The notes below the pieces were generated by a model, which did no database searches, had not been told where the DNA came from, and worked only from the letters and a program-made list of their open reading frames with translations. Shown here one piece after another: positions 25,336 to 41,323 of a stretch of DNA of 64,000 nt. Position numbers and translations under genes: made by a program. The DNA is from Octopus vulgaris (lineage: Eukaryota). Every line of letters begins with the position of its first letter. The first letter of the stretch is position 1. The stretch is from assembly GCA_951406725.2 (NCBI GenBank), contig OX597815.1:79670001-79734000 (forward strand). Direction: 5' to 3'.

Positions 25336-25444
25336 GTAAAAAGTGAAAAAACTACAGAAGGCTTAAAGGTTAAAAAATATATATATTTGCGTCAATATGT
25401 CTGAAGAATATTAAAAATGTTTTTCTTACAATAACATAATTTAG

Positions 25445-25483
25445 AAGAAAGACCGGTTTCGCGTTTAGCTTTTCAAATTTCTT
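25445..25483 (-). ncRNA. Minimal type I hammerhead motif, U3-A8 core variant
   Basis: Minus strand AAGAAA-T-TTGAAAA-GC-TAAAC-GC-GAAACCGGTC-TTTCTT: 6-bp stem I, 2-bp stem II, palindromic ACCGGT stem III, GUC site. Confidence 0.7.
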
Positions 25484-25598
25484 GCGACGTTATGTTTATA
25501 TTGAACAGAGTTATATTTATGTTTATGTTTAAAAGAGTTCTAAATAAGGGGAGGTAGTGAGTGATTTCTTCCGGTGTAAGGGAGATAATCGCTTGAAA

Positions 25599-27152
25599 TT
25601 AAAAAAAAATTTTTTTTCCTTTCCCTTGGTGTGAATTTCTCTGTATCAGTATGTTGGCATGGTTAAGTCTGGGCTTGTACTTTTCAATGAAGAATGTTTC
25701 CTTGTTTAGTCTAATTTGTGTTGATGATCCGATAGCACATTGGTAAAATGGAAAGATTAAAAATTGTGGCAGTAGTTGCTTTGCGCATTTCTCAATGTGC
25801 TCACTAAAAGGTATCATTCTGTATTCTGGGAATGCAATCTGTTGTCGATGCAGTGTGCATCTACGTCTGAGTGATAGTCCCGTGGATCCCACGTAGTCTT
25901 GGTGGCAGCCCGAGCATTTTATGACATAAATTATGTTTTCAGAGGCACAAGTAAAGTTAGATTTGATCTTGAATTTCTGTCCCTCTTTAAAGAGGAATTC
26001 TGATCCTTCTAGCAGGTTTGGACATGTTGCACAGTTCGATCTACCACATTTTTTTACTTTTGCATCCGTAATTTCAGAAAACAATTTTGCCTTTTTGAGA
26101 ATCTTTTTAAGTGATTTAGGTTGTTTGTAGCTTTTAATGATTTGGTGTATGTTTAGAATTTCCTTTAATTTGGGGTCCTTATGAAGTATTGGTAAATTCT
26201 GGGTGATGATGGTGAAGGCTTCTTTGTTTCTGGGGTTGTATGTAGATATGTAAGGTAGTATTTTCGGGGAAGGTGTGTTGTTGTGTTGAACTTTTCTTAA
26301 AGTTTCTATGTTGATTTCTGTTGCACGTCTGATCCCATCCTCTATGAGTTGAGCTGGGTAGTGTCTGTCAATTAGGGTGTTTTTGAGTTCTTGCAGTCTA
26401 AAGTTCCTGGTATTTTGTTCTGACACTATTGTGCATATCCTTCTTGCAAGGTTGAAGGGGATGTTTGTTTTAGTGTGTCTTGGGTGGCATGAATTAAAAA
26501 GAAGGTATTGTTTGGCGTCTGTGGCTTCGTAAAAAATGTCTGTTTCTATTTTAAGGCTAATTTTTTAAATTAGTATATCCAAGAACGGGAGCTCCTTTTG
26601 GTTGTATTCCATTGTGAACTGTATATTTGGGTTTATGCTGTTCAATAGGTTTTTAAATTTTAGGAGTTTATCTGTGTTTTCATTCCAGAGTATAAAACAA
26701 TCGTCTAAGAATCGTTTCCAATTCTCTTTTATGTATTGAAAAAGGGGGTTTCCAAAGATTGATAAAGATTCCTGGTAAATGATTATTTCCATGTAGCCCA
26801 TTGTTAGGTTCGCAATGACTGGTGCTGCCCTTGTACCCATAGCAATTCCGGATTTTTGACGGTAAAATGTATTGTTAAACATGAAGTGGTTATTATGTAG
26901 GATGAATTCAATTGATTTAGTAATGAATTCTTTACTGATCCTTTTTGGTATTTCTTCCGGAAATTGGTCCAGCCAGAACTGTATTGCCTCTAGTCCATAA
27001 TTATGAGGTATACTGGTATACAAGTTAACTACATCAAATGAAACCAAGATTGTTTCTTCCTTGGCTTTTTTTGGGAGGTGGTTTAACATATCTAAGTCAT
27101 CTCTGATATGGCTATCGATATGTTTAAGGAAGGGTTTCAGGAGGATGTCCAT
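25599..27152 (-). pseudogene. PLE reverse transcriptase + GIY-YIG endonuclease (frameshift near 26567)
   Basis: RT motifs LVSFDVVNLYTSIP, GIAMGTRAAP, WKRFLDDCFI, LPFLDI. Endonuclease CASENIIYVIKCSGCHQDYVGST...H...E...PRLN. Confidence 0.92.
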
Positions 27153-28544
27153 GGTTTCGTTAGAGCTTCTCGAAAACATATACTTTTTGTAGAGACGCAT
27201 CAATCATGAATTGGGTAGAAGACATGAGATTCTGTACCAGTTGCTAAAACAATATTATCCAATGTGTTGGGCCTCAGTAAAATTAGGAGGCTATTTCAAG
27301 CTTTTCCATTAGTTTCTCTTGACAATTCAAGGAAAGTTGTGTTTGGAAGTAACATGTTAAAAAGTCTGTTGTTCTCAAACGGTGTATCTACTGTGAATGC
27401 TCACAGCACTGCAAACTCTTCAAAAAGCACCCAAGGACCAGGAGACGAGGATAAAGTAGGTGACGTATTCAACCTACCATTTGAAAGCAGCAAGAAAGAA
27501 GAGACCGCTGTGTGTTTATCATGGAATGTTTGTTGCTATCAGAAAGAGAGAAGAAAATGTAGAAGATATGAAAAAGGGAAAGGATATTTGGACAGAATGT
27601 TAGAAAAGGTTGGTTGATAGATTAGGTAGACAGAGAGGCTATTAACACATATTTTACGGCGTGAATGTCCTTAAGATCAGTGAGAGTCTTAGATCTGACA
27701 AGAATGATAATAGATCTATGAAAATTTAAAATTATAATGTCCAGGAGGGGAAAAATAGAAAAAAAAAGTAAAATAAGCTAAACTTAGATGTTGCTAGTGT
27801 TGTAATTTTTTTTTTTTTTATCAACAGTAGCGAACAGGAAAATTCATTATACGTCGGACAAAACGTTTAGCAGCATTTTTCCGCCTCTGCATTTTAAGCT
27901 CAAATACCGCTGAGGTCAATTTTGCTACTCATGCTATTGGATCGATAAAGTAAAGTACTAGTCAAGTGGTGGTGCTGGCGCAATCGATCTGCCCCTAACT
28001 AATCGACTTGCCCTCTTCCTCTAAAGTAGCTGGCCTTGGGCCAAAATTTGAAACAGTTGTTGTTATTGATGTTGTTTAACTCTCGGAAAACTCCTATCAA
28101 GTGAGCATATGATCAAAGGTATTCCAGACATTAATTCTCGCGTCATTTCAAGAGTTTCTAGAACTATGTTAGTCTAATGTGTGCTTCTCTTTATTAAGAT
28201 GGTAGGATCTGATTTGAGGGACATTTGAAGATTTGGCTGCAAGCTACTTCACTGGTCAGACACTTTGAAATGGTTTCTTATACTAGAATAAATACTTTGA
28301 AGGAAATACTTTGTAGTATGCAACAGAAGCATATATTTAAGTGAAACAAATCTACAGACTTGAAAAGGGATTACAGATTTGACTAATCGAGATTCACTCG
28401 CTGCTATTCTTTGGCGTTCACCGAAAGGGGTTTAGAAATGTATGTCCTATCATGACGCACGAAGCTTTAGACATTATGAAGAAATGAGAAGTTGTGACGT
28501 TCACTTATCCAATAGTACCAACAACTTAAAGCGGAGAAAAAGTC

Positions 28545-36224: not shown

Positions 36225-36264
<40 letters not shown>

Positions 36265-36268
<4 letters not shown>

Positions 36269-37042
36269 AAACAAGTCAAAAATAGAAAATGCTAAAATAA
36301 TTTTATAGTGAACATTTCAGTACCGGTTTCGGTCATTTTGAGACCTTTTCAACTGTAACGATTAAATAATTAAATTTAGAAAAATTAGAAGAAAAGTTTT
36401 TTTAAAAGAATATTTCTATAGTAGTGTTCAGATTTAAGTGGCATTCTGCCTTTCTCTGACTCCCTTGTTTGCACTTGTCGGAGGTCGTTGTGAGTTCTTG
36501 GAAGGGTAGTAGAGGAAGAAGGCTGGTGGGGAAAGGGGGATGGGAGAATCTGGGAGTGCCCTGATGGTCGTATTTTGAATGGTCAGTGGCGGCTGGCAGT
36601 CTCAGTTCAATTCAGGAGAATATTTATATTGACAGGCTTGTTTATAGAATTAGCGTAGGTGTTATACTAAAAAACATTAGAGACAAAGTTAAGGGGTAGG
36701 GGGTGGAGAAGAGAGAAGAAGAAGAAGAAGAAGAAGAAGAAGAAGAAGAAGAAGAAGAAGAAGAAGAAGGAGAAGATGACGATGATGGTGGTGGTGGTGA
36801 TGATTATGACGACGATGATGATGATAATGATGATGATGAAGAAGAAGAAGAAGAAGAAGAAGAAGGAGGAGAAGGAGAAGATGGTGGTGATGATGGTGGT
36901 GATGATGATGACGACGATGATGATGATAATGATGATGATGAAGAAGAAGAGGAAGAAGAAGAAGAAGAAAAAAACAGAGAAGGGGAATATGAATGGGTGT
37001 AAGTATAGCTATGAAGGGGCTGATTAGTAATGGATTCTATGG
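36265..37042 (-). repeat. 3' pLTR (contains (GAA)n/(GAT)n tracts and a hammerhead motif)
   Basis: Reverse complement of 39632-40424 with only a few differences. Confidence 0.93.
36313..36360 (-). ncRNA. Minimal type I hammerhead motif, U3-A8 core variant
   Basis: Minus strand CGTTACAG-TTGAAAA-GGTC-TCAAAAT-GACC-GAAACCGGTA-CTGAAATG: stem I with one mismatch, 4-bp stem II, palindromic stem III, GUA site. Confidence 0.75.
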
Positions 37043-37100: not shown

Positions 37101-39370
37101 TTAATTGTTTGTCGTAGACCCGTTTAGAAGTGGCTTGTATTTTGTAATAAAGAGATTTTCTTTACTTATTCGTTGTCTCGAGGTTGTATCGTCCCTAAAT
37201 TGGTAGAGGGGGAAAATTCTGAAGTTTGGTGTTTTTTTGTTGGCGCAAGTATCTATGTGTTGGCTAAAAGCTATTTTTCTGTTTTGGGGAATTTTTATCT
37301 GGGATCTGTGCAGGGCCATTCGTTTACGCAAACCATTTTTTGTTTGGCCTATGTACTGCTCTTGACACCCGGAGCAGGTTAGTGAGTATATTAGGTTCTC
37401 CGAAGCACATGTGAAGTTGCTTTTCACTGTAAACCGTTGTCCCTGCTTGAAGGAGAACTCTGATCCCTCAATTAGATAGTCGCATATCCCGCAATTGGGT
37501 CTTCCACATTTTTTTACTGTCGGCTTCTGTGTTGAGGAGTGAATTCGGGCTTGTGTAAGGAGACTTTTCATGGATCTAGGCTGTCTTTTGCTTTTTATGA
37601 TCGTGTGTGTTTGGAGGATTGTGTTCATTCTGTGGTCTTTTTTTAGGAGGGGTATGTTGTGGAGGATGGTGTCGAAGGCTTCGTTATTGAGAGGGTTGTG
37701 TGTGGAGATGTATGGTAAGGCTTTTGGTTGTAAGTTTTTCTTTGATTTGGGATGTCTCAGTTCTTTGATGTTAAGTTGAAGGGCACGTTGAATGCACTTG
37801 TCAATAAGTGAAGGTGGATAGTTCCTGGTGATTAGGGTATCTTTTAGTTCTTGTAGTCGTGTGTCTCTGGTGTTTGCGTTAGAGACTATAGTGCATATCC
37901 TTTTTGCTAGATTGAAGGGGATATTCATCCTGGTGTGTCTGGGGTGGCATGAATTGAATGGAAGATATTGCTTAGAGTCTGTAGGCTTATAGTATATGTC
38001 TGTTTCTATTATATTATTAGCTTTCTTAATGAGGATATCGAGGAAGGGGAGTTGTTGTTGGCTATATTCCATCGTGAATTAGATGTTTACGTCCAGTCCG
38101 TTTAAAATTTTCTGGAATTCTATGAGTTTTTCTATATTTTTATGCCAAAGGATGAAACAGTCATCTAGATATCTCTTCCAGTTGTTTTCTATGTAGATGG
38201 AGAAAGGGCTGCCATATCTTTCTAGAACCTTACGATACAGACTGATCTCTAGGTATCCTATGACTAGGTTGGCAAAGGAGGGGGCCATTCGTGTACCCAT
38301 CGCAGTCCCCGATTTTTGTCGGTAGAAGTTGTCATTGAAGGCGAAGAAGTTATTTTCCAGGATGAATTTGACCCCTTCTATCACAAATTCTTTTTTGATG
38401 CGGTGTGGTAGTTCGTTGGCGTGATTCTCTAGTCAGAATTGGATTGCCTCTAGTCCTAGGTTGTGGGGGATATTGGAGTAGAGGTTGACTACATCGAAGG
38501 ATACCAGTATGGTGTTTTTGTTTATAGTATTCGGTAGGTGATTGAGCATATCTAAGTCGTCCCTTATATAGCTTTTGACATGTTTGAGGAGTGGTTTTAA
38601 CAGGGTGTCTAAAAAGTTACTGAGGCGGTGGGTTTCGCATGCGGGACCTGCTATTATGGGTCTCAATTTGAGGTCATTAGGATTAGGGACTTTAATTATT
38701 TTGTCTGTAGCTATCTTGCATGCGTTGCTTATTTTTTCACTTTTGTGGATCTTAGGTATACCGTAGAATTGGCTAGTTTTACTTGTGAAATTGGTCATAT
38801 AATCATATTCTTTGTCGGTGAGCCCTGCTTTGTATGGGTTTAATATGGATTTTAGTTCCCTCATTATTTTTTGTTGACTGTAGTTTTGTGCCTTTTCATA
38901 GTATGTTGTGTCTTCCAGCATAGAAAGTACCAAAGTTATGTAAAATGTCGTATCCATTAAGACAACAGCACTCCCTTTATCGGCCTCTTTGATTGTTATT
39001 GTTTTATCTAGTTTTAATTTGTTCAACTCAGCCCATTCTTTTTTGCTGAAGTTTGGTTTGTGTTTTTGTTTGTGCATATGTTGATATGGGTAATTTGATA
39101 TGTGGTCACAGAAATCATCAAGTGTTTTATTCTTACCTTTCGAGGGGGTGTAGTTACTCCTATTTCTGGCTAACGATTCGTCCTCGTTGTATTTATCGTA
39201 TAGCTCCTCAGTAAGTCTTAATTTTCTGCAGAATTCTGCGATGTCTTCTTTCATTTCATTGTAGTTGGGGTGTTGTGGGGTGGGTGTAAACTTGAGTCCT
39301 TTGGAAAGTATGTTTATTTGGTTTGCTGTTAGTTCCTTGTGAGTTAGATTAATAATTTTTATTACTTTTG
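37101..39370 (-). pseudogene. PLE polyprotein (RT + GIY-YIG) with two in-frame stops and one 5' frameshift
   Basis: IINLTHKELT...(fs)KGLKFTPTP, IKEADKGSAVV, FYGIPKIHK, LRPIIAG, SFDVVNLYSNIP, GTAMGT, WKRYLDDCFI, NLIYSLTCSGCQEQYIGQT. The ORFs 38433-39254, 38079-38384 and 37101-38072 share one frame, broken at W>TGA (38433) and Q>TAA (38079) relative to the 26.5-kb paralog. Confidence 0.93.
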
Positions 39371-39631
39371 GTTCCTCCTGCTTGTTTGGTGCTATCTTGT
39401 GTCTCTGTGTTTGCGTATTGGGTCTAAAAAATGAATGCGGTGGTTGGGACGGTAGCTAGTATATAGTTGTTCTTTGTTGATTAGGGGTCTCCTGTTGTGA
39501 TTTATGGTGTGTGTTCTTGGAGCAGTATTGAGGAGAGCATCCCGATATCCCATATTCGGGTGTGGTGTTCTAGGAGGCCTTCGTTGGTAATCATTGCAAG
39601 TGGTGTGGGTTTGTTGTGCATGGTTGTTTAA

Positions 39632-40424
39632 CCATAGAATCCATTACTAATCAGCCCCTTCATAGCTATACTTACACCCATTCATATTCCCCCTTCTCTG
39701 TTTTTTTCTTCTTCTTCTTCTTCCTCTTCTTCTTCATCATCATCATTATCATCATCATCGTCGTCATCATCATCACCACCATCATCACCACCATCTTCTC
39801 CTTCTCCTCCTTCTTCTTCTTCTTCTTCTTCTTCTTCATCATCATCATTATCATCATCATCGTCGTCATAATCATCACCACCACCACCATCATCGTCATC
39901 TTCTCCTTCTCCTTCTTCTTCTTCTTCTTCTTCTTCTTCTTCTTCTTCTTCTTCTTCTTCTTCTACTTCTCCACCCCCTACCCCTTAACTTTGTCTCTAA
40001 TGTTTTTTAGTATAACACCTACGCTAATTCTATAAACAAGCCTGTCAATATAAATATTCTCCTGAATTGAACTGAGACTGCCAGCCGCCACTGACCATTC
40101 AAAATACGACCATCAGGGCACTCCCAGATTCTCCCATCCCCCTTTCCCCACCAGCCTTCTTCCTCTACTACCCTTCCAAGAACTCACAACGACCTCCGAC
40201 ACACAAGTGCAAACAAGGGAGTCAGAGAAAGACAGAATGCCACTTAAATCTGAACACTACTATAGAAATATTCTTTTAAAAAAACTTTTCTTCTAATTTT
40301 TCTAAATTTAATTATTTAATCGTTACAGTTGAAAAGGCCTCAAAATGACCGAAACCGGTACTGAAATGTTCACTATAAAATTATTTTAGCATTTTATATT
40401 TTTGACTTGTTTTTTCATATATAT
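39632..40424 (+). repeat. Inverted 5' pLTR copy
   Basis: Reverse complement of 36265-37042. Confidence 0.93.
40321..40368 (+). ncRNA. Second copy of the U3-A8 hammerhead motif in the inverted pLTR
   Basis: CGTTACAG-TTGAAAA-GGCC-TCAAAAT-GACC-GAAACCGGTA-CTGAAATG, with one stem II mismatch relative to the left copy. Confidence 0.7.
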
Positions 40425-41323
40425 CAACTCGTGTGTTCCTTTTCACCCTTATACATATAGTGTGCGCGCGCGTGTGTGTGTGTGTGTGTGTGCAGGTATG
40501 TAGGCATACAATTGCTGTAAATTACACGCGAAAAATATGACATTTCTATAATCAACAACACAAATGTGATTAGAACGACACGTTTAGCAACAACAACAGG
40601 CACATTTTGCCTAATGAAAATAATTTTGGAATTTTAACGTCAGCTACAAAGTGGAAATCTAACCTCTCTTGCTAATGATACCAACAAGGAATGGGCACCA
40701 GATGTGGCCATCTTGCTGATAGAACAACTATCCAGCAGTACAATGCAAGCCTAACGTTTTTGTTTGAAGGCATCATACAAACACAAGAGAAGAGGGAAAT
40801 GATATATACATTTTCAAAGTTACAGTGATTCTTCTTGTGCACTCAAATGAGCAGTGGGAGATACATCTAACCGATACGTGACAGAGTATTTCCTTTATAG
40901 AACTTGGAAGAACTATGGAACTATGTATGTTTCCATGACAGTAGAAACATACTAGGAAACCGAGCGAAAACAAACATGGAGGGTTGTTAGATCAGAACGA
41001 GAGGAAAATAGTGAAAGCTGTTATTTTCCTCTCCTTCTGGTCTAAGGACCTCTATGTTTTTCTCGTTCGGTTTCCTTGTATGTCTCCACTGTCATGTTTT
41101 TGTTCTCAACTTTGACTCCCCCATAAATCCTAAGTTTTATTTTAGAATTTATGGGAGCAACTGTCTTTAAAGACTTAAATTGTCGTTGAATGCTCGAAAT
41201 GAGGAATAGATAGACAGCCGACAATTGATGAAGGGCCCTTTCTCTGTGTTTATTTTTCCTGTTTTCAATTTTTTTTACTCGTTAAACTTGTTATAAATTC
41301 TAACAACTTGTTTCCTTCATTAT

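What the first reader, a model, noticed from the sequence alone, without database searches (positions are those of the whole stretch)
36313..36360. Penelope pLTR hammerhead with a compensatory U3-A8 catalytic core (UUGAAAA)
Seen: CGTTACAG-TTGAAAA-GGTC/GACC-GAAACCGGTA-CTGAAATG in both pLTRs (also 40321-40368), in the element's sense orientation near the 3' end. Known: in the active hammerhead C3 and G8 form a Watson-Crick pair, and U3-A8 is a rare tolerated swap; PLE HHRs are minimal type I with palindromic stem III. Inference: a PLE lineage has fixed the non-canonical core, which standard CUGAnGA searches miss, so these elements would be scored as ribozyme-less.
Basis: partly seen in the sequence, partly recalled or inferred. 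Interest (0 to 1): 0.82.

Follow-up and report, generated by a model that had tools for sequence, protein, structure and literature searches.

The report
Penelope hammerhead with U3-A8 core
A young Penelope-like jumping-gene family carries a small hammerhead RNA motif, likely a slow self-cutter, whose core base pair is U-A instead of C-G in nearly all of its roughly 2,000 copies, but this swap was already described in other Penelope elements, so this is a new example and not a new kind.

Summary
The motif is real at 36313-36360 (minus strand), at the 3' end of a 5'-truncated Penelope-like element (PLE) with a Neptune/Nematis-type endonuclease linker. The copy at 40321-40368 lies in an inverted 5' repeat, is antisense to the ORF and has a stem II mismatch. 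U3-A8 is the family norm: of 2,004 genomic matches only 6 have C3 and 5 have U3 without A8. U3-A8 is reported in natural hammerheads (PMC3088659) and in Schistosoma Cercyon PLEs (about 1,300 hits, same UUGAAAA core; PMC4209133), and this scan found it in other genomes. The genome also holds about 21,000 canonical minimal hammerheads. Catalysis is untested; the predicted fold has a competing U3-A17 pair, and a young sister subfamily spread with U3·G8. Side findings: a conserved U-UUU-UUA site with a -1 frame step between an ORF1 and RT-EN, and a retrozyme-like repeat whose tree suggests U3-A8 to C3·A8 to C3-G8. Verdict: new member of a known kind.

The parts
36313..36360 (-). Type I hammerhead motif, family A: stem I CGUU-A-CAG / CUG-A-AAUG, core U3-U4-G5-A6-A7-A8-A9 (36352-36346), stem II GGUC/GACC, GAAA, palindrome ACCGGU, predicted cut after GUA (36321/36320)
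40321..40368 (+). Second copy of the motif in the inverted 5' repeat; antisense to the ORF; stem II mismatch (C at 40338)
36257..37034 (-). 3' terminal repeat (pLTR / 3' UTR) ending in a (TA)n microsatellite; holds a long trinucleotide tract
39632..40424 (+). Inverted 5' copy of the 3' terminal repeat
40425..40458 (+). 34-nt PLE 'tail', the same sequence that follows the (TA) end of the repeat ahead of ORF1 in tandem units
   Evidence: a 30-40 bp tail is described in PMC8557442
37101..39455 (-). ORF2: RT, CX4CxxC linker and GIY-YIG endonuclease with CCHH; two in-frame stops in this copy (38433-38435 and 38079-38081)
   Evidence: intact genomic copies are 784 aa
39395..39631 (-). 3' remnant of ORF1 (residues 333-411 of the 411-aa ORF1 of full-length units); the copy is 5'-truncated here
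39425..39431 (-). Slippery-type heptamer T-TTT-TTA in the ORF1/ORF2 overlap, with ORF2 in the -1 frame
25444..25484 (-). Hammerhead motif of a second, diverged PLE family (B) in the same window, also with a UUGAAAA core; 2-bp stem II; stem I out of register by one base
25599..27203 (-). Truncated RT and GIY-YIG ORF of family B (endonuclease part 55% identical to family A)

Best explanation
The motif is the type I hammerhead of a young Penelope-like retrotransposon family in which U3-A8 replaces C3-G8 in nearly every copy, and it likely cuts slowly after GUA, only as a dimer or with help from a protein, to trim tandem transcripts to unit length. Shown: the motif, its place at the 3' end of an RT-GIY-YIG element, its fixation in about 2,000 copies, its presence in sister families with covarying stems, and head-to-tail units of about 4.4 kb in which the predicted cut lies 123 nt before the ORF1 start codon. 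Inferred: the 2-bp stem III cannot form alone, so two copies pair through the ACCGGU palindrome; U3-A8 keeps the 3-8 Watson-Crick contact; a competing U3-A17 pair lowers the rate further. This locus is probably inert: two stops in RT, 5' truncation, and its two motifs lie on opposite strands, so they cannot meet in one sense transcript.
For: Fixation: 2,004 matches, control 0; 6 with C3; 5 with U3 but not A8; 30 of 30 fetched loci U3-A8 and A17. Youth: 150 of 150 scored endonuclease hits 100% identical, 32 of 150 (hand count) in a 784-aa open frame; tandem periods 4,383-4,433 bp. Lineage: families A, B, C at 57% ORF2 identity all have U3; ACCGGU-class counts U3-A8 7,097 (family A excluded by the pattern; control 70), C3-G8 315 (42), C3·A8 329 (50), U3·G8 427 (48). 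Structure under selection: all 6 stem I pairs and both counted stem II pairs change on both sides. Dimer: co-fold of two copies -27.1 kcal/mol against 2 x -9.8, pairing through the palindrome. Literature: PLE min-hammerheads cut weakly as dimers and not as monomers (PMC4209133); a PLE hammerhead cuts only with the element's protein (PMC11167929); 3-8 covariants are active in vitro per PMC3088659 (citing a paper I could not open).
Against: No cleavage was tested, and in the text I read PMC4209133 assays no U3-A8 PLE motif. The lowest-energy fold pairs U3 with A17, 2.3 kcal/mol below the hammerhead-compatible fold; this mirrors the C3-G17 pair presumed to inhibit G17 hammerheads (PMC3884650). 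A young family B subfamily spread with a U3·G8 wobble and no pair at 1.1-2.1, yet has a 775-aa open frame. A retrozyme-like repeat amplified in tandem with C3·A8. Hammerhead mutants did not affect insertion in vitro and no reads began or ended at the cut site in Anolis (PMC11167929). Naiad PLEs proliferate without canonical hammerheads (PMC8557442). The alignment was hand-picked from pattern matches, so the invariant core letters are built in and relatedness inflates the shuffle test.
Confidence: 0.68

Rival explanations
1. [quoted passage not shown]
For: Competing U3-A17 pair in the most active family; amplified U3·G8 and C3·A8 subfamilies; stem II reduced to 2 bp or A-U rich in families B, C, D; cleavage dispensable for insertion in vitro (PMC11167929).
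Against: Both Watson-Crick states far outnumber both mismatch states across the ACCGGU class, H17 is never G in the 60 loci examined for it (30 unconstrained at this position, 30 constrained by the pattern), and the retrozyme-like repeat ends at C3-G8 in its youngest arrays; this fits selection on the active 3-8 contact.
Confidence: 0.24
2. U3-A8 is mutational decay of a canonical core in dead copies, driven by A+T pressure.
For: The genome is A+T rich and both changes (C to T, G to A) go in that direction; with C at position 7, G8 sits in a CpG.
Against: Intact, near-identical, tandem copies carry U3-A8; single-change states are 0.5% of family A (11 of 2,004 incl. one C3-G8). Decay predicts the reverse.
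Confidence: 0.03
3. The hammerhead is a passenger: a self-cutting motif that rides on PLE ends and matters mainly for the derived retrozyme-like circles, not for the element.
For: PMC8557442 raises that hammerheads may parasitise PLEs; a 359/360-bp tandem repeat in this genome has the same ACCGGU stem III and both U3-A8 and C3-G8 states; the preprint 10.64898/2026.07.22.740005 links retrozymes to PLE pLTRs.
Against: The motif keeps its position and covarying stems across three coding families 57% identical in protein. I did not test homology of the retrozyme-like monomer to families A-C outside the motif.
Confidence: 0.05

Closest known systems
U3-A8 minimal hammerheads of Cercyon PLEs of Schistosoma mansoni (Cervera and De la Pena 2014, PMC4209133)
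   Same: Type I, in the pLTR of an EN+ PLE, palindromic stem III region, U3-A8; their S. mansoni(4) entry has the same UUGAAAA core; pairs in opposite strands at truncated copies are also described.
   Different: Here stem III keeps a 6-nt palindrome (ACCGGU, against ACGU), stem II is 4 bp without the extra base after A9, the cut triplet is GUA, and the host element has the CX4CxxC linker of Neptune/Nematis type. Scale: about 9,000 ACCGGU-class U3-A8 matches here against about 1,300 in S. mansoni (different descriptors).
Natural U3-A8 core covariants (Perreault et al. 2011, PMC3088659)
   Same: Same compensatory swap of the 3-8 pair.
   Different: Reported there as 'several examples'; here fixed in high-copy mobile families.
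Neptune / Nematis clades of EN+ Penelope-like elements (PMC8557442)
   Same: RT then C-terminal GIY-YIG with CCHH, CX2-5CxxC linker (CGRPNCGIC), (TA)n insertion, inverted 5'-truncated copy, 30-40 bp tail.
   Different: Two overlapping ORFs with a -1 frame step at T-TTT-TTA, whereas the abstract describes canonical EN+ PLEs as single-ORF. The Fig. 1 legend mentions an ORF1 separated by a frameshift, but I could not see for which clade.
Non-LTR retrozymes with type I hammerheads (PMC7229834; bioRxiv 10.64898/2026.07.22.740005)
   Same: A 359/360-bp tandem repeat in this genome fits this description and shares the ACCGGU stem III.
   Different: The window's motif sits in a coding element, not in a short tandem repeat.

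Membership tests
PLE-associated type I hammerhead (min-HHR and small-palindrome variants) | Core YUGAnRA ... GAAA ... UH with a Watson-Crick 3-8 pair | tested here: met
   UUGAAAA / GAAA / UA, U3-A8
PLE-associated type I hammerhead (min-HHR and small-palindrome variants) | Open stem I and closed stem II starting with G10.1-C11.1 | tested here: met
   Left copy: stem I 7 of 8 pairs, stem II 4 bp; covariation across families. The right copy has a stem II mismatch.
PLE-associated type I hammerhead (min-HHR and small-palindrome variants) | Palindromic, very short stem III allowing dimers | tested here: met
   ACCGGU; the dimer co-fold pairs through it
PLE-associated type I hammerhead (min-HHR and small-palindrome variants) | Located in the terminal repeat of a PLE | tested here: met
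   About 750 nt after the endonuclease stop, about 65 nt before the (TA)n end
PLE-associated type I hammerhead (min-HHR and small-palindrome variants) | Self-cleavage after H17 | not testable with these tools
   Needs an in vitro assay or RNA end mapping; only contigs were available
Rfam hammerhead families (clan CL00010) | Reaches the family gathering score | tested here: not met
   Best RF02275 19.7 bits vs 52, E 0.53
EN+ Penelope-like element | RT with DKG motif plus C-terminal GIY-YIG with CCHH | tested here: met
   EADKG; Pfam RVT_1 E 3.5e-8 and GIY-YIG E 3.8e-4 on an intact copy; Cys pair inside GIY-YIG and two His
EN+ Penelope-like element | Tandem or inverted terminal repeats and a 30-40 bp tail | tested here: met
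   Inverted repeat and 34-nt tail in the window; tandem arrays elsewhere
Neptune / Nematis clades | CX2-5CxxC linker between RT and EN | tested here: met
   CGRPNCGIC, CGRPNCKTC, CGRSNCATC in families A, C, B
Neptune / Nematis clades | Placement in an RT tree with reference elements | not tested
   No reference sequences were fetched; Neptune against Nematis is unresolved
Non-LTR retrozyme | Short non-coding tandem monomer | tested here: not met
   The window's motif is in a 4.4-kb coding unit

The most novel reading that the evidence does not exclude
A whole Neptune-like lineage with a -1-frameshifted ORF1/RT-EN layout runs on catalytically active U3-A8 hammerheads held partly off by a U3-A17 pair until dimer or protein binding, and the genome records a natural compensatory walk at the ribozyme's catalytic pair (U3-A8 to C3·A8 to C3-G8) in a dependent retrozyme-like repeat: a ready-made natural series to measure how much catalysis PLEs and retrozymes need.
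Probability: 0.3. Interest if true: 0.52.

Novelty: new member of a known kind. Interest (0 to 1): 0.27.

Why it matters
The swap itself is in print, so the finding does not change what is known about hammerheads. Its value is practical. About 9,000 motifs of this class in one genome are invisible to CUGAnGA strings, and the window's own copy stays below Rfam's threshold. The genome also offers all four 3-8 states in amplified subfamilies, including intact young elements, which makes the open question 'do PLEs need hammerhead cleavage?' easier to test. The conserved -1 frame step between an ORF1 and RT-EN may be the less known feature.

Tried and rejected
DNA similarity search of the own genome with the 111-bp motif returned nothing (the tool skips common words); patterns were used instead. 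The idea that U3-A8 dominates all hammerheads of this genome was tested and rejected: canonical CTGAnGA with GAAAYRTH has 20,974 matches (control 258) against 2,568 (control 1,099) for TTGAnAA; dominance holds only for the ACCGGU class. Expression: no RNA holder listed, and all runs laid were contigs, so nothing can be said on transcription or cut ends. A motif-independent survey (endonuclease hits under 88% identity in fetched loci) listed 16 stretches, 12 with a downstream motif, all U3; it is not unbiased because most loci were fetched by motif, and family C's motif lies beyond the 1.3 kb scanned. First metagenome scan found nothing. The second gave 80 loci; of 11 motif-like hits in them 7 were CUGAnGA, one weak TTGAATA, and the closest relative (L259, 41%) has too little 3' flank to show its motif, so the age of U3-A8 beyond this genome's close kin is unresolved. 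ORF1 has no Pfam match and no similarity to the 3' part of the upstream ORF of L259. No stimulatory structure is predicted in the 90 nt after the slippery site (-2.9 kcal/mol; pseudoknots not modelled). The first retrozyme tree split C3-G8 in two; array-end rows carried unrelated flanks, and it was rebuilt on aligned parts only (1 of 37 rows dropped as too short, 2 exact duplicates merged). The single C3-G8 copy in family A (L035) is one event and is not taken as evidence.

Full report
1. Observation. The reverse complement of 36313-36360 is CGTTACAG TTGAAAA GGTC TCAAAAT GACC GAAACCGGT A CTGAAATG. In hammerhead numbering: stem I CGUU-A-CAG with CUG-A-AAUG, core U3 U4 G5 A6 A7 A8 A9, stem II GGUC/GACC, G12-A15.1, the palindrome ACCGGU, A17, predicted cut at 36321/36320. 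The second copy (40321-40368) is on the + strand: the two terminal repeats are inverted (alignment), so it is antisense to the ORF. It has GGCC in stem II, which removes the predicted stem (pair probability 0.03 against 0.96). Rfam sees only the left copy, below threshold (RF02275, 19.7 bits vs 52).

2. The element. [quoted passage not shown] It has the DKG motif, a CX4CxxC linker and the CCHH residues; the linker marks Neptune and Nematis PLEs according to PMC8557442. The 3' end sits in a (TA)n run, the 5' end is truncated and capped by an inverted copy with a 34-nt tail, a layout described in PMC8557442. The copy is 96.8% identical over 3,401 columns to a full-length unit elsewhere. The genome is 2.8 Gb in 227 contigs; my guess of a cephalopod host rests on composition and size, is recalled, and was not tested.

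3. Is U3-A8 the family state? A pattern that leaves positions 3, 7 and 8 free has 2,004 matches (control 0). Six have C3 (5 C3·A8, 1 C3-G8) and five have U3 with G or C at 8; A or G at position 3 were not counted. 30 of 30 fetched loci are U3-A8 with A17. The family is very young: all 150 scored endonuclease hits are 100% identical and 32 of 150 (hand count) lie in a 784-aa open frame. Head-to-tail arrays have periods of 4,383-4,433 bp. In contigs of four runs with four other organism labels (4 of 24 listed runs laid), no difference at positions 3 or 8 is among the 40 rows shown (25 rows not shown), and three of the runs have a contig that covers the core with no other letter.

4. Is it a lineage trait? 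A second PLE family in the same window (ORF 27203-25599, motif about 25484-25444, minus) also has UUGAAAA. For motifs ending in GAAACCGGTH the genome counts are: U3-A8 7,097 (pattern excludes family A; control 70; some nested matches count twice), C3-G8 315 (42), C3·A8 329 (50), U3·G8 427 (48). Intact ORF2 frames of families A, B and C are 57% identical. On 16 hand-picked representatives all six stem I pairs and both counted stem II pairs change on both sides: 85.4% of 144 cells pair, against 52.3% shuffled (0 of 500) and 31-54% for slid partners; the 3-8 column is U-A 11, U-G 2, C-G 1, unpaired 2 (the mismatch rows were chosen on purpose). The rows are related and were found by pattern, so this supports a conserved fold but gives no probability. 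The dominance is limited to this class: canonical cores with a minimal stem III number 20,974 (control 258) against 2,568 (control 1,099) for U3-A8.

5. How it likely works. In a full-length tandem unit the order is hammerhead, about 65 nt, a short TA run, the 34-nt tail, ORF1 (411 aa from ATG), then ORF2. The predicted cut is 123 nt upstream of the ORF1 start, so cuts at successive motifs would release a unit-length RNA with both ORFs (inference). Stem III cannot form in a monomer; two copies co-fold at -27.1 kcal/mol against 2 x -9.8 through the palindrome. Published PLE minimal hammerheads show no monomer activity and low dimer activity (PMC4209133); the Anolis Poseidon hammerhead cuts only when the element's protein is present, and its mutants still insert in vitro (PMC11167929). 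I put slow, assisted cleavage at about 0.68 and a non-cutting structural role at about 0.24. Against strict need for catalysis: a young family B subfamily has U3·G8, has lost the 1.1-2.1 pair and still shows a 775-aa open frame, and a C3·A8 repeat forms tandem arrays. At this locus the motif is probably idle: the ORF is broken and the two motifs lie on opposite strands.

6. Comparison with what is known. [quoted passage not shown] S3 lists UUGAAAA in a PLE-linked motif, UUGAUAA in another, and a U3·G8 motif in Saccoglossus. PMC3088659 reports natural U3-A8 and cites in vitro activity of 3-8 covariants. Searches for 'hammerhead' with 'U3-A8' found only PMC4209133, and 'U3A8' none; an octopus repeat annotation does not mention hammerheads (PMC13282606). 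This scan reported U3-A8 PLE hammerheads in other genomes and has no notes on this one. So: a member of the PLE type I hammerheads, U3-A8 subtype, in a further element lineage.

7. Side findings. (a) ORF1 and ORF2 overlap, ORF2 has no start codon at its beginning and lies in the -1 frame behind T-TTT-TTA. The site has six T in 18 of 19 matches across families A, B and C (five T in one family C copy; two of the 19 rows are the same place in overlapping loci L065 and L117), and it recurs with the same frame step in a metagenome relative at 41% identity (L259). A programmed -1 frameshift is inferred; that this heptamer is a classic slippery site is recalled. No downstream stimulator was predicted. 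Searches for a prior description found none specific, but the Fig. 1 legend of PMC8557442 mentions an ORF1 separated by a frameshift for a clade I could not see. (b) A 359/360-bp tandem repeat of retrozyme type shares the ACCGGU stem III: 400 matches, of the first 100 listed 54 U3-A8, 40 C3-G8, 6 C3·A8, 0 U3·G8 (hand count). A tree of 34 copies built without the core letters puts C3·A8 and C3-G8 together (100/97) apart from the more diverged U3-A8 rows, two changes in all. With a midpoint root this reads U3-A8 to C3·A8 to C3-G8; the root is not independently fixed, and a direct double change followed by CpG decay of G8 is a three-step alternative.

8. What I saw of each paper. PMC4209133: parts 1-3 of 4 of the text, supplement PDF parts 1-2 of 3 (file 1 not searchable, figures not held). 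PMC11167929: parts 1-2 of 4. PMC8557442: Introduction and passages; its supplementary files on hammerheads were not opened. PMC3088659: section 8 and passages. bioRxiv 10.64898/2026.07.22.740005: part 1 of 5; supplements closed, so whether its descriptors allow U3-A8 is unknown. PMC3884650, PMC6765202, PMC7229834, PMC13282606, PMC3846280, PMC6431247: passages. Not held, so unseen: Lunse et al. on PLE hammerhead variants (PMC5785218), Przybilski and Hammann on 3-8 exchanges (PMC1986816) and Arkhipova et al. 2017 (PMC5850863); these may already cover U3-A8 activity in PLE motifs and the frameshift.

9. Verdict. Observation partly confirmed, lineage inference correct, novelty low. New member of a known kind; interest 0.27.

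Noticed in passing
window 39425-39431 (minus); L167 3501-3564; L122, L117, L259 1300-1312: ORF1 and RT-EN overlap with a conserved T-TTT-TTA heptamer and a -1 frame step in three families (57% identity) and in a 41% metagenome relative; a likely programmed frameshift in an endonuclease-bearing PLE. ORF1 (411 aa) has no Pfam match.
   Followed up: partly
L226, L227, L134, L128, L129, L133, L229-L258: A 359/360-bp retrozyme-like tandem repeat occurs in U3-A8, C3·A8 and C3-G8 states; a core-free tree suggests a stepwise return to the canonical pair.
   Followed up: partly
L119, L120, L122, L132: A young family B subfamily with a U3·G8 core and a lost stem I base has long open frames and many inverted-pair insertions; cleavage may be dispensable.
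   Followed up: partly
window 25444-27203 (minus): A second, diverged PLE (family B) in the window, also with a UUGAAAA hammerhead, ending at a (TA)n run.
   Followed up: yes
L122 (G000:C1:70848300-70858200): A family A unit is joined directly in front of a family B terminal repeat, the two hammerheads 96 nt apart in the same orientation and sharing the ACCGGU palindrome; cross-family dimers would be possible.
   Followed up: no
G000 genome-wide; L171-L200: About 21,000 canonical minimal hammerhead matches (GAAAYRTH class), dominated by a few dispersed families; additional small U3-A8 families exist in this class too (for example L211).
   Followed up: no
L121, L078-L096: A dispersed canonical-core family with a long stem II loop and ACCGGU stem III; no ORF similar to family A was found near it.
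   Followed up: no
L035 (G000:C13:524776-524806): A single family A copy has both C3 and G8, although single changes are rare (5 C3·A8, 3 U3·G8 of 2,004).
   Followed up: no
window 36714-36985 and 39690-39961: The element's 3' UTR carries about 270 nt of trinucleotide repeats, copied with each insertion and variable in length between copies.
   Followed up: no
window 36262-36700 in runs X9, X17, X20: Contigs from runs with other organism labels match the family A repeat letter for letter over 88-145 nt: very close relatives, recent transfer or mislabelled runs.
   Followed up: no
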